From the NCBI GenBank assembly GCA_964486045.1, contig CAZALK010000009.1, positions 128,001-192,000 of the forward strand: a DNA stretch of 64,000 nucleotides, written 5' to 3'. The translations under genes and the position numbers were made by a program. Of the stretch, positions 20,621-61,242 are shown piece after piece. The notes beneath the pieces are model-generated. The model saw nothing but the letters and a program-made list of their open reading frames with translations, made no database searches and was not told the origin of the DNA. This DNA comes from an uncultured archaeon (GTDB lineage Archaea > Asgardarchaeota > Lokiarchaeia > Sigyniarchaeales > SOKP01). How positions within the stretch are numbered: the first letter of the stretch is position 1; each line of letters opens with the position of its first letter.

Positions 20621-20721
20621 TATAATACATATACCCTTTAAAAACTCAGATTTCAAGAACTAAAATAATAAAATTTAATTTGAACTACTCTTTTTAGATA
20701 ATAATATGATTAAAAGATTTG

Positions 20722-21070
20722 GTGAGTAAAAAAATACAAAAAGCTAGAATAAGGCTTTCTTCTACTCAATTAGACGCACTTAAGTCGGTATGCGGACAAA
20801 TTGAGTCTGTGTGCAAAACACTTTCAAACCTCTTGTTAGTGGTGCGACTCACAGGGTATTAGAAAGAACGGACCTATTCCTCTTCCCACAAAAAGATTAC
20901 GTGTGCCAATATTAAAAGCGCCCTCTGGACAAGGAACTGCTACCTGGGCAAAATTTGAGATGCGTATTCATAAACGTCTTTTTGAAATAATTGCTAATGA
21001 AAGAAGCATGCATCTCATTATGAAGATTCAAATTCCCGAGTCAGTGCTTGTAGAAATTGAACTAATGTAA
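20722..21070 (+). CDS. rps10: 30S ribosomal protein uS10, interrupted by a 31-nt intron (exons 20722-20817 and 20849-21070; 105 aa spliced)
   Basis: Exon 1 VSKKIQKARIRLSSTQLDALKSVCGQIESVCK; exon 2 SQGIRKNGPIPLPTKRLRVPILKAPSGQGTATWAKFEMRIHKRLFEI..VEIELM; uS10 motifs ARIRL, GPIPLPTK, EMRIHKRL lie in two different frames. Confidence 0.93.
20818..20848 (+). other. Putative bulge-helix-bulge/loop (tRNA-type) intron in rps10 mRNA
   Basis: Exon stem UCUGUG/CACAGG, central helix UGCA/UGCG, bulges AAA and ACU, intron stem CACU/AGUG; cutting after the 2nd nt of each bulge removes 31 nt and restores the frame. Confidence 0.85.
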
Positions 21071-22834: not shown

Positions 22835-23665
22835 ATGGGATTCACTATTAATTTTTTGAAACAAATCACTTTAAATGTATTTGATGTAGTTTCTCCCCTT
22901 TTGGGGACAAAAGAAGCTGCTATAAAATCTAAAAGAGGTGCTGGGGGAGATATATCAATGAATATTGATATTGTTGCTGAAAATGCTATAATTGAAACGT
23001 TAGAGGAAGCCAGTATTGATTTATTATTAATTAGTGAAGAAGTGGGGGAAAAATTTATAGGTGATAAAGAAAAAGCAAAGGAGAATCAATTAACTTTAAT
23101 CGTGGATCCATTAGATGGGTCAAATAATGCGGTTAGAGGTGTACCCTACTGTTCTGTATCAATAGCATCAGCGATTGGTACAAAAATAAGTGATATCAGA
23201 AAAGCTACTGTCCTTAATTTGAACACTAAAGATATTTATTGGGCAGAGAAAGGAAAGGGTGCTTTTCTTAATGATAAAAAAATCCAAGTCTCTAATTTAG
23301 ATATTTCTCAAAAATGCTTTTTTGAACTCAACCTCCCTAAGGAAAATTTTATGAAAGTTTTTCAAGATCTAATGCCAATAATAAGAAAATTTTATCGAAT
23401 GAGAATATTGGGAAGCAGTGCACTAACTTTATGTCAAGTAGCAGGTGGTAATATGGAAGCCTTTATTAACATGAGGAATAGTAATAGGTTAGTTGATGTA
23501 GCAGCAGGATTGTTGATTTTAAAGGAAGCCGGAGGAAAATTTTTTTCGTTAAACGGGACTGAGATTGATTTTCCATTATCAATAGATGTTAGATTTCCAT
23601 TTGTAGCTTGTAATGCAAACTTAGAACCTTTCCTTAAAACAGAAATCCAAAATAAAATAAACTGA
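22835..23665 (+). CDS. Inositol monophosphatase / FBPase family protein
   Basis: ISEE, IVDPLDGSNN, RILGS, DVAAGLLILKEAGG. Confidence 0.92.
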   Translation: MGFTINFLKQITLNVFDVVSPLLGTKEAAIKSKRGAGGDISMNIDIVAENAIIETLEEASIDLLLISEEVGEKFIGDKEKAKENQLTLIVDPLDGSNNAVRGVPYCSVSIASAIGTKISDIRKATVLNLNTKDIYWAEKGKGAFLNDKKIQVSNLDISQKCFFELNLPKENFMKVFQDLMPIIRKFYRMRILGSSALTLCQVAGGNMEAFINMRNSNRLVDVAAGLLILKEAGGKFFSLNGTEIDFPLSIDVRFPFVACNANLEPFLKTEIQNKIN

Positions 23666-23682
23666 AATGTAAGCCGAATATA

Positions 23683-24843
23683 ATGAATTCAAGAGAAAGG
23701 GTACGGATTACATTAAACCATAAGGAACCCGATAGTGTTCCATTGGATTTAGGTGGAAACCAATCAGGAATTCATATAAAAGCATATAAAAGACTTATTG
23801 ATTATCTTGGAATCGAAGATAAAGAAATTAAAACCTACGATTATATACAGCAACTTGCAACTCCATCTGAGATATTATTAGAACGTTTTAACATCGATAC
23901 GAGGTATATTCGACCTCTTGGTGGCATGGTTAAAATTGATGATTTCGAAGTAGAATATGAAGGAAATTATGTTGGTGTTTATGATCAATTTGGATGTTTT
24001 TGGGGAAATAATGCTAATAAAGATTTAAAGAACATCTTGTATTACGATCCTGTTTTTCATCCCTTTGAGGATTTTAAGACAGTTCAAGATATTAAGGGAT
24101 TTGATTGGCCTGATGGAACCGATAAATCCCCATTTGAAGGATTAAAAGAATATGCTAAAGGATTACACGACCGAACTAATTTTGCATTAGGATCTGCGCC
24201 AACAGGGTGCATTTACGAGTACACAACTTTTCTTTTTGGTTTCACTAGAGCTTTAAGATATCTAAAGAAAAAACCAGAATTAATAACTGCTGCAATGGAA
24301 GGACTTTTACAATATTGGGTTGATTACAACATCACATTTTTGAATGAAGTTGGTCAATACTTAGATTTTCTGTGTATCAATGGAGATCTCGCAGAACAAG
24401 CTGGCCCTATAATGGACTTGAGGACATATAAAGATTTGATAAAGCCCATTGAGAGGAAACTTTCTGAAAAAGTTCATTCTTTAGCAAACCTAAAGATAAA
24501 TTATCATTGTTGTGGTTCAATCCCACAATTTATCCCCCATTTTGCAGAAATTAAATATAACGCAGTTAATCCCGTTCAAATTTCGGCATATGATATGGAG
24601 CCTTGTAGCCTAAAAAAACGTTTTGGGAAAAAAATTGCTTTTTGGGGTGGTATGTGTAACTCACAAGCTACGCTACCTTTTGGTAATCCTAAACAAATAA
24701 GAAAAGAAGTTAAAAGAAATTTTTGGTGCTTGAAACCTGGTGGTGGTTTTGTAGCAGCAAATATTCATAATATCACAGCAGAAGTTCCCCCTCAAAATAT
24801 AGTAGCTATGTTTGACGCTGCAAATGAATTTAGAAATTACTAA
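23683..24843 (+). CDS. Uroporphyrinogen decarboxylase-family (MtaA/CmuA-like) protein
   Basis: SRERV..HKEPD, GDL, HCCG, LKKRFG..FWGG, PGGGF..HNI. Confidence 0.85.
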   Translation: MNSRERVRITLNHKEPDSVPLDLGGNQSGIHIKAYKRLIDYLGIEDKEIKTYDYIQQLATPSEILLERFNIDTRYIRPLGGMVKIDDFEVEYEGNYVGVYDQFGCFWGNNANKDLKNILYYDPVFHPFEDFKTVQDIKGFDWPDGTDKSPFEGLKEYAKGLHDRTNFALGSAPTGCIYEYTTFLFGFTRALRYLKKKPELITAAMEGLLQYWVDYNITFLNEVGQYLDFLCINGDLAEQAGPIMDLRTYKDLIKPIERKLSEKVHSLANLKINYHCCGSIPQFIPHFAEIKYNAVNPVQISAYDMEPCSLKKRFGKKIAFWGGMCNSQATLPFGNPKQIRKEVKRNFWCLKPGGGFVAANIHNITAEVPPQNIVAMFDAANEFRNY

Positions 24844-61140: not shown

Positions 61141-61242
61141 GCGCTCTTAGTATAGTGGTTATTATGCTGGCTTGCCAAGTCAGCGGCCCGGGTTCAATTC
61201 TTGGAATCAATTAGATTCCTCGTGGATATCCCGGAGGGCGCA
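61141..61242 (+). tRNA. tRNA-Gly(GCC) with 30-nt BHB intron in the T-loop (61199-61228)
   Basis: Acceptor GCGCTCT/AGGGCGC, anticodon arm CTGGC-TTGCCAA-GTCAG, T-stem CCGGG/CCCGG; BHB central helix TTCA/TGGA with bulges ATT and TAT; 72 nt mature. Confidence 0.93.

What the first reader, a model, noticed from the sequence alone, without database searches (positions are those of the whole stretch)
20722..21070. Ribosomal protein uS10 gene split by a tRNA-type bulge-helix-bulge intron: candidate endonuclease-spliced mRNA intron in an Asgard archaeon
Seen: uS10 motifs lie in two frames; read unspliced, the gene stops at TAG 20860-20862 after 46 aa. The break folds as exon stem UCUGUG(20806-11)/CACAGG(20850-55), 4-bp central helix UGCA(20812-15)/UGCG(20843-46), 3-nt bulges AAA(20816-18) and ACU(20847-49), and intron stem CACU/AGUG with one extra G (relaxed BHB or bulge-helix-loop). 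Known: archaeal splicing endonuclease EndA cuts after the 2nd nt of each bulge and RtcB ligates. Applying that rule removes exactly 20818-20848 (31 nt), giving ...QIESVCK|SQGIRKNGPIPLPTK..., a 105-aa protein with no gap against typical archaeal uS10 (QIxxIAxxTGVxxxGPIPLPT). Both the frame and the residue count come out right from the structure alone. The established archaeal mRNA BHB intron is in crenarchaeal cbf5; I know of none in a ribosomal-protein gene. Inference: expression of an essential gene depends on the tRNA splicing machinery, a parallel to eukaryotic HAC1/XBP1 non-spliceosomal splicing. The tRNA intron at 61199-61228 shows that this genome must process BHB introns outside the anticodon loop.
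Basis: partly seen in the sequence, partly recalled or inferred. Interest (0 to 1): 0.95.

Follow-up and report, generated by a model that had tools for sequence, protein, structure and literature searches.

The report
tRNA-type intron splits ribosomal protein gene
The only gene for ribosomal protein uS10 in this Asgard archaeon is interrupted by a 31-base insert shaped like an archaeal tRNA intron. Related organisms keep the same insert while the protein stays under strong selection, so the messenger RNA almost certainly has to be cut and rejoined by the tRNA-splicing enzymes before this essential protein can be made.

Summary
The genome's single rps10 is split by a 31-nt insert (20818-20848). 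All 41 congeners with a detectable rps10 lack it.

- **The insert is real DNA.** Independent contigs of two samples carry it at depth 83 and 261. A cold-seep metagenome from another study holds a diverged copy.
- **It is conserved.** A gapped-pattern scan found two more alleles with a homologous 31-nt insert at the same site (flanks about 83% and 73% identical).
- **The gene is alive.** Exons give dN/dS of 0.04-0.08 at dS 0.4-1.4.
- **The fold fits.** All three sequences fold into the same helix-bulge-helix-bulge-helix structure as their minimum-energy fold. Applying the EndA cut rule gives a gapless uS10.
- **The machinery is present.** The genome has two EndA paralogues (alpha-beta type) and RtcB.
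- **It is not alone.** Same-geometry 30-nt inserts sit in EF-2, RNA polymerase A', cdhA, a zinc-finger gene and a tRNA-Gly T-loop.

No RNA data exist, so splicing itself is inferred. In the papers I could search, cbf5 is the only coding-sequence precedent. This scan has already noted such mRNA mini-introns on other DNA (Asgard EF-1alpha and mutase, several DPANN genes) and elsewhere in this genome. Verdict: a new member of a known kind, well supported.

The parts
20721..20725 (+). GGTGA, a likely Shine-Dalgarno element.
   Evidence: GGTGA is conserved in all 19 congeners at a fixed distance from the conserved ATACAAAAAGC. In the congeners this GTG is out of frame by 1 nt, so the start may instead be the conserved ATA at 20734 (inference).
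20722..20817 (+). rps10 exon 1 (32 codons counted from GTG 20722; 28 if the start is ATA 20734)
   Evidence: Translation; gapless alignment to congeners.
20806..20855 (+). hBHBh' splicing motif: outer helix 20806-11/20850-55, central helix 20812-15/20843-46, bulges 20816-18 and 20847-49, inner helix 20819-22/20838-41 plus 20825-27/20833-35
   Evidence: Minimum-energy fold. 96% of pair cells are standard pairs in 3 homologues, against 18-49% when the partners are slid.
20818..20848 (+). 31-nt intron (predicted cuts after 20817 and after 20848)
   Evidence: Clean 31-nt gap against 19 congeners. Carried by independent contigs of 3 samples from 2 studies. A homologous 31-nt insert is present in L063 and L067.
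20849..21070 (+). rps10 exon 2 (73 codons plus TAA)
   Evidence: Pfam PF00338, E 9.5e-19, profile positions 27-98; translation.
61141..61242 (+). tRNA-Gly(GCC) with a 30-nt intron at 61199-61228 in the T-loop (central helix UUCA/UGGA, bulges AUU/UAU). Supporting context only.
   Evidence: Rfam tRNA match 61147-61205 stops at model position 64. The sequence read by hand restores the T-stem CCGGG/CCCGG and the acceptor stem.

Best explanation
rps10 carries a 31-nt archaeal bulge-helix-bulge intron. The proposed mechanism has four steps.

1. In the pre-mRNA, the last bases of exon 1 pair with the first bases of exon 2 (6-bp outer helix).
2. The last four exon-1 bases before the 5' bulge pair with the last four intron bases before the 3' bulge (4-bp central helix).
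3. The (alpha-beta)2 splicing endonuclease cuts after the second base of each 3-nt bulge, that is after 20817 and after 20848.
4. RtcB joins the exons and probably circularises the intron. The result is GTGTGCAAA|TCACAGGGT and a colinear uS10.

Unspliced mRNA gives only a 46-aa fragment. The anatomy, the conservation and the selection on the exons are shown here. The cleavage, the ligation and the enzymes responsible are inferred.
For: - **Single, essential gene.** Only one rps10 is found in a 99%-complete genome.
- **Clean insert.** The insert is absent from 41 of 41 congeners that have an rps10, and the boundary is exact.
- **Real DNA.** It is in contigs at depth 83 and 261 from two samples of study P1, and in a diverged contig from another study.
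- **Conserved in other alleles.** L063 and L067 carry a homologous 31-nt insert at the same site, with syntenic flanks 83% and 73% identical.
- **Selection on exons.** dN/dS is 0.081 against L063 and 0.036 against L067, at dS 0.40 and 1.41. The intron differs by only 3 and 7 of 31 bases.
- **Conserved fold.** All three alleles give the same fold as their minimum-energy structure. Paired cells are 96%, against 18-49% in slid controls. Two central-helix pairs change on one side only and stay paired (U-G to U-A, G-C to G-U). The four L067 changes in the inner segment lie at positions unpaired in the window fold, and one of them adds a pair.
- **The cut rule is the textbook one.** It follows from canonical tRNA geometry: the stem ends at position 31, four helix bases and two bulge bases bring the cut to 37/38 (established knowledge).
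- **Machinery present.** There are two EndA paralogues of about 200 aa; read by eye, one has a candidate catalytic histidine and the other lacks it. RtcB is present. Asgard EndA is published as (alpha-beta)2 with the loop that gives broad specificity (PMC5829648).
- **Same geometry elsewhere in the genome.** EF-2, RNA polymerase A', cdhA, a zinc-finger gene, a Rab-like gene and the tRNA-Gly.
Against: - There is no RNA evidence of any kind.
- No pair shows a compensatory change on both sides, since only 3 full sequences are available.
- Two of 51 pair cells are broken: A-A in the central helix of L063, and A-G at the end of the outer helix of L067.
- The cold-seep variant has two exon-stem changes that weaken the outer helix.
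- Folding energy is not exceptional against shuffles.
- Genome-wide, the motif is no commoner than its mirror image. The motif alone therefore predicts nothing. The argument rests on its coincidence with the junction defined by homology.
Confidence: 0.85

Rival explanations
1. The insert is an inactivating insertion and this rps10 is a decaying pseudogene.
For: Read unspliced, the frame stops at TAG 20860 after 46 aa. Only this genome among 42 congeneric genomes with an rps10 has the insert.
Against: It is the only rps10 in a 99%-complete genome. Three alleles with the insert have diverged to dS 0.4-1.4, yet dN/dS is 0.04-0.08 and both exons remain open. The insert keeps its length, site and fold.
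Confidence: 0.02
2. The ribosome copes with the insert by translational recoding: either a +1 frameshift within 20840-20848, or a 31-nt bypass from TGC 20812-14 to TGC 20843-45.
For: Identical TGC codons lie 31 nt apart. The exon-2 frame is open from 20840.
Against: A frameshift would insert about 10 residues into a protein that aligns without a gap in 34 relatives. No stop codon follows the take-off codon, unlike T4 gene 60 (my own knowledge). In L067 the second TGC has become TGT, so the matched codon pair is not conserved. Recoding does not explain the conserved BHB geometry or the same geometry in a tRNA gene.
Confidence: 0.03
3. The 31 nt are removed at the RNA level by something other than EndA and RtcB, such as another endonuclease and ligase or an unknown self-processing reaction.
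For: No enzyme assay exists. Many same-size inserts in this genome lack an outer helix, which is a relaxed substrate.
Against: The geometry is exactly that of EndA substrates. A tRNA gene in the same window carries the same architecture. Alpha-beta EndA with broad specificity is documented for this superphylum (PMC5829648). A 31-nt RNA is far too small for a group I or group II ribozyme.
Confidence: 0.08
4. The insert is an assembly or sequencing artefact.
For: The genome is a metagenome-assembled bin (45 contigs, 7.8% contamination).
Against: Independent Logan contigs from two samples carry it with no differences at depth 83 and 261. A contig from another study, and two contigs from other public metagenomes, carry diverged versions.
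Confidence: 0.01

Closest known systems
BHB intron in the cbf5 (pseudouridine synthase) pre-mRNA of Crenarchaeota (Watanabe 2002; Yoshinari 2006; Yokobori 2009, PMC2738675)
   Same: It is a short intron inside a coding sequence. It is flanked by a bulge-helix-bulge motif and removed by the tRNA splicing endonuclease of the hetero-oligomeric (alpha-beta) type. Its distribution among related species is patchy, with gain and loss.
   Different: The gene (ribosomal protein uS10) and the phylum (Asgard) differ. Splicing is shown experimentally for cbf5 and not here. Here the intron is one of several in the same genome. A 2020 paper still counts cbf5 as the only coding-sequence case (PMC7714728).
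Non-canonical-position tRNA introns of Asgard and TACK archaea (PMC5829648; bioRxiv 10.64898/2026.10.13.758758)
   Same: The architecture matches the 30-nt T-loop intron of tRNA-Gly in this window: 4-bp central helix, two 3-nt bulges and an inner hairpin. The machinery is presumably the same.
   Different: The host is an mRNA, so frame and codon continuity matter. The 2026 census of Asgard tRNA introns does not mention mRNA or ribosomal-protein genes.
BHB intron in the 5' UTR of Haloferax volcanii HVO_1309 (PMC7714728)
   Same: It is an mRNA substrate of the archaeal splicing endonuclease, confirmed there by circRNA-seq and in vitro cleavage.
   Different: That intron lies in an untranslated leader and does not interrupt a reading frame.
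HAC1/XBP1 unconventional mRNA splicing (IRE1 plus a tRNA ligase)
   Same: It is protein-only, non-spliceosomal mRNA splicing. Exons are joined by a tRNA ligase (RtcB in animals), and a frame change depends on splicing.
   Different: The nuclease is IRE1, not EndA. The substrate is a pair of stem-loops, not a BHB. That splicing is stress-regulated, and nothing here indicates regulation.

Membership tests
Archaeal BHB (EndA-type) intron | 4-bp central helix flanked by two 3-nt bulges on opposite strands | tested here: met
   UGCA/UGCG with bulges AAA and ACU, as the minimum-energy fold. The central helix has four standard pairs in the window and L067, and three plus an A-A mismatch in L063.
Archaeal BHB (EndA-type) intron | Outer (exon) and inner (intron) helices, making the strict hBHBh' form | tested here: met
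   A 6-bp outer helix and a 4+3-bp inner helix with one extra G. The 7 inner pairs are invariant in 3 alleles.
Archaeal BHB (EndA-type) intron | Cutting after the 2nd base of each bulge gives a functional product | tested here: met
   The cuts remove exactly 20818-20848. The product is gapless against 19 congeners, and the alignment gap coincides with those coordinates.
Archaeal BHB (EndA-type) intron | The genome encodes a splicing endonuclease (broad-specificity type) and the RtcB ligase | tested here: met
   PF01974 matches twice (102 and 67 bits). The two ORFs are 201 and 200 aa; read by eye, the second lacks the candidate catalytic histidine seen in the first. RtcB scores 557 bits. I did not check for the L1 loop.
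Archaeal BHB (EndA-type) intron | Structure kept in evolution | tested here: inconclusive
   96% of pair cells are standard, against 18-49% when slid. Two pairs vary on one side and stay paired. No pair changes on both sides, with only 3 sequences.
Archaeal BHB (EndA-type) intron | Observed cleavage, exon ligation and circular intron | not testable with these tools
   No RNA run is listed for this DNA.
Pseudogene | Relaxed selection on the coding sequence | tested here: not met
   dN/dS is 0.036-0.081 between alleles that carry the insert.

The most novel reading that the evidence does not exclude
The rps10 intron is one member of a population of about 30-nt mini-introns that are still being gained, lost or passed between lineages. 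They occur in both tRNA and protein-coding genes of this Asgard family, including core genes such as uS10, EF-2 and RNA polymerase A'. Three observations point this way. (1) Two independent rps10 introns lie at different sites in two genera. (2) The intron is present or absent among congeners. (3) The rps10 tree groups the three alleles that carry the intron, whereas the flanking genes place L067 elsewhere (p-AU 0.045).
Probability: 0.3. Interest if true: 0.85.

Novelty: new member of a known kind. Interest (0 to 1): 0.68.

Why it matters
In the papers I could search, the archaeal splicing endonuclease has one coding-sequence mRNA substrate, crenarchaeal cbf5, plus one untranslated leader in Haloferax. 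Here an essential ribosomal protein of an Asgard archaeon depends on that pathway. Comparative data show the arrangement has lasted across species-level divergence under strong selection.

Together with the same-geometry inserts in EF-2, RNA polymerase A' and other genes of this genome, this suggests that protein-only mRNA splicing is routine gene expression in these closest prokaryotic relatives of eukaryotes. It also has a practical consequence. Gene callers truncate or miss such genes, which affects marker-gene sets and completeness estimates for these lineages.

Tried and rejected
- **tRNA finder.** ARAGORN found no tRNA in the window, because the tRNA-Gly has a T-loop intron. Rfam found it.
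- **Intron as a repeat.** The 31-nt intron has no second copy in the genome, so it is not a repeat element.
- **RNA evidence.** No RNA holder is listed for this stretch, so expression could not be examined.
- **Exact intron search.** The exact 31-nt intron was not found in JGI metagenome contigs. The gapped exon-anchored pattern found L063 and L067 plus three unrelated intronless rps10 loci. In genome contigs the same pattern hit only two bacterial records, which I did not inspect.
- **Genome-wide censuses.** Four censuses combining a BHB motif with an open-reading-frame test showed no excess over a mirror-image control. A hairpin-centred version gave only a slight excess at length 30 (24 against 11). 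These scans are too noisy to count introns and are evidence neither way.
- **Homology census.** A comparison against 400 kb of congener G006 recovered rps10 and one zinc-finger gene, plus two doubtful cases.
- **Congeners without rps10.** Five congeners without an rps10 match also gave nothing with exon 2 as the query.
- **Competing helix.** The helix UGAGUC 20802-07 with GACUCA 20846-51 (note e1-5505352) is perfect only in the window and has 3 of 6 pairs in L063 and L067. I reject it as a conserved switch.
- **One clade or not.** The intron-bearing alleles group in the rps10 tree (94/81). The 1.5-kb flank tree disfavours that grouping (delta lnL 11.7, p-AU 0.045). This is left unresolved.

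Full report
**Observation.** An open frame from GTG 20722 (or TTG 20719) reads VSKKIQKARIRLSSTQLDALKSVCGQIESVCK. It then runs through unrelated residues to TAG 20860-62. The rest of uS10 (SQGIRKNGPIPLPTK...EIELM) lies in the +1 frame from 20849 to 21070. That part is the only piece Pfam recognises, matching S10 profile positions 27-98. It has a 6-bp outer helix at 20806-11/20850-55, a 4-bp central helix at 20812-15/20843-46, and 3-nt bulges at 20816-18 and 20847-49. The inner helix is 20819-22/20838-41, with one unpaired G at 20842.

**Is the insert real, and where are its edges?**
- The genome is 99% complete in 45 contigs and has a single rps10.
- In a draw of 40 relatives, and then in all 54 genomes of the genus, every genome with a match (41 congeners) has an uninterrupted rps10 covering profile positions 1-98. 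Twelve congeners have no detectable rps10.
- The spliced protein aligns without a gap to 19 congeners at up to 97% identity.
- A DNA alignment puts one clean 31-nt gap at exactly 20818-20848.
- Logan contigs built independently from two samples of one sediment study carry the insert with no differences, at depth 83 and 261.
- A 151-nt contig from a cold-seep metagenome of another study spans 20768-20918 with five mismatches and no gap. Its intron is identical, and it differs at 20806 and 20809.
- A further contig in that run is an intronless relative whose exon 1 joins exactly at 20849.

**Conservation.** This is the decisive evidence.
- An exon-anchored gapped pattern found two more metagenome contigs, L063 and L067, with a 31-nt insert at the same site. 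Their neighbourhoods are syntenic with the window at about 83% and 73% nucleotide identity, so they are different species.
- Between the window and L063 or L067 the exons differ at 9.3% and 17.9% of bases. dN/dS is 0.081 and 0.036, at dS 0.40 and 1.41. The intron differs at only 3 and 7 of 31 bases. A gene that cannot be read without removing 31 nt has therefore stayed under strong purifying selection through long divergence. That excludes a pseudogene.
- Each of the three sequences folds on its own into the same motif.
- On the alignment, 96% of pair cells are standard pairs, against 18-49% when partners are slid.
- Two central-helix pairs change on one side and stay paired (U-G to U-A, G-C to G-U).
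- The seven inner pairs never vary.
- Two cells are broken.
- No pair changes on both sides, so covariation proper is not shown.
- The four changes of L067 in the inner segment all lie at positions unpaired in the window fold. One of them adds a base pair.

**Mechanism.** The cut rule is not ad hoc. In a canonical pre-tRNA the anticodon stem ends at position 31. Four central-helix bases and two bulge bases then put the cut at 37/38, which means after the second bulge base (established knowledge). Applied here, the rule removes 20818-20848 and gives AAA|TCA. Of the cut sites I enumerated, this is the only one that combines a 6-bp outer helix and a 4-bp inner helix with a uS10-colinear product. 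A motif this strict occurs by chance about 6e-6 times per position and length in this genome.

The genome encodes two EndA paralogues of 201 and 200 aa. Read by eye, one has a candidate catalytic histidine and the other lacks it. This matches the (alpha-beta)2 enzyme with a broad-specificity loop reported for Asgard archaea (PMC5829648). RtcB is present. Cleavage and ligation themselves are inferred, because no RNA run is listed for this DNA.

**Context in this genome.** Notes from other first readers of this scan claim many 28-32-nt BHB inserts in protein genes of this genome. I checked several myself.
- EF-2: C13 92018-92047, FSITAH|30 nt with three stops|IDHGKTT.
- RNA polymerase A': C13 44101-44130, GHFGH|IELARP.
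- cdhA: C22 24748-24777 on the minus strand.
- A zinc-finger gene: C21 17229-17258, confirmed by alignment to congener G006.
- A Rab-like gene: C1 354340-354369.

All share one architecture: a 4-base central-helix strand, a 3-nt bulge, a 23-nt hairpin, the 4-base partner strand and an AAA bulge. The 30-nt T-loop intron of tRNA-Gly(GCC) in this window has the same architecture, except that its 3' bulge is UAU. The rps10 intron is a slightly atypical member. It is 31 nt, has a weaker inner hairpin and has a strong exon helix. My motif-based genome-wide censuses were too noisy to give a count.

**A second rps10 intron.** In a survey of 400 genomes of the phylum, the weak scorers that I then re-examined (five genomes) included one interrupted rps10, in G225. 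G225 belongs to the same family but another genus and is 99% complete. Its rps10 carries an in-frame 30-nt insert with three stops at a different site (...TATWAK|30 nt|YEMRIH...). The insert has the 9-bp, 5-nt-loop hairpin architecture and a 3-of-4-pair central helix. The other seven members of its genus that have a match show no such drop in score. uS10 has thus been invaded at least twice.

**History.** The rps10 tree groups the three intron-bearing alleles (UFboot 94, SH-aLRT 81). A tree of 1.5 kb of flanking genes pairs the window with L063 and places them next to intronless congeners, while L067 falls elsewhere. Forcing one clade costs 11.7 log-likelihood units (p-AU 0.045). Vertical descent with losses and lateral spread both remain possible.

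**Rivals.**
- Pseudogene: excluded by dN/dS.
- Artefact: excluded by independent contigs from several studies.
- Frameshift: it would add about 10 residues to a protein that is gapless in 34 relatives.
- Bypass: a TGC-to-TGC bypass lacks a stop after the take-off codon, and its codon match is lost in L067.
- Competing helix: the helix proposed in another note is not conserved.

**Comparison and novelty.** The closest known case is the cbf5 pre-mRNA intron of Crenarchaeota. A 2020 paper still names it as the only additional BHB intron in an mRNA, beside the Haloferax 5' UTR case that the paper itself reports (PMC7714728). The 2026 preprint on Asgard tRNA introns does not mention mRNA or ribosomal-protein genes. 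I found no paper reporting such an intron in a ribosomal-protein gene or in Asgard. Absence from this library does not prove absence from the literature. This scan has already followed up similar introns on other DNA, namely Asgard EF-1alpha, a mutase and PF04008, and several DPANN genes. I therefore file this as a new member of a known kind, with unusually good comparative support.

Noticed in passing
L032:1610-1639 (minus strand) = G225:C135:24666-24695: A second, independent rps10 intron in another genus of the same family. It is an in-frame 30-nt insert with three stops between ...TATWAK and YEMRIH.... It has a 9-bp hairpin with a 5-nt loop, a central helix GGCA/GGUU (3 of 4 pairs) and bulges AAU/AAA. 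The other seven genus members with a match show no such drop in score.
   Followed up: partly
G000 C13:92018-92047 (+), C13:44101-44130 (+), C22:24748-24777 (-), C21:17229-17258 (+), C1:354340-354369 (+): 30-nt inserts with in-frame stops and the same 4-bp helix and 3-nt bulge geometry. They interrupt EF-2 (P-loop), RNA polymerase A' (GHFGH|IELARP), cdhA, a small zinc-finger gene (confirmed against congener G006) and a Rab-like GTPase. Most lack an outer helix.
   Followed up: partly
window 61141-61242: tRNA-Gly(GCC) with a 30-nt intron at 61199-61228 in the T-loop, a non-canonical position. ARAGORN misses the gene, and Rfam's match stops at the intron.
   Followed up: yes
window 20719-20736: The start codon of rps10 is uncertain. 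GGTGA is conserved like a Shine-Dalgarno element. Its GTG is in frame only in the alleles that carry the intron (congeners are 1 nt shorter there). The conserved ATA at 20734 may be the start, which would give 101 aa rather than 105.
   Followed up: no
genus survey (G012, G047, G057 and 9 others): 12 of 53 congeners have no detectable rps10, including genomes that are 96-99% complete. G012 has 341 withheld bases, which is about the size of this gene. rps10 stands alone here rather than following the EF-1alpha gene.
   Followed up: partly
window 23640-24821 against L063: The syntenic contig L063 lacks this segment, which holds the 386-aa gene at 23683-24843. This is a one-gene presence or absence difference between close relatives.
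   Followed up: no
rps10 tree against flank tree (window, L063, L067): The rps10 tree groups the three intron-bearing alleles. The flanking genes place L067 elsewhere (p-AU 0.045). This may hint at lateral movement of the intron or of the allele.
   Followed up: partly
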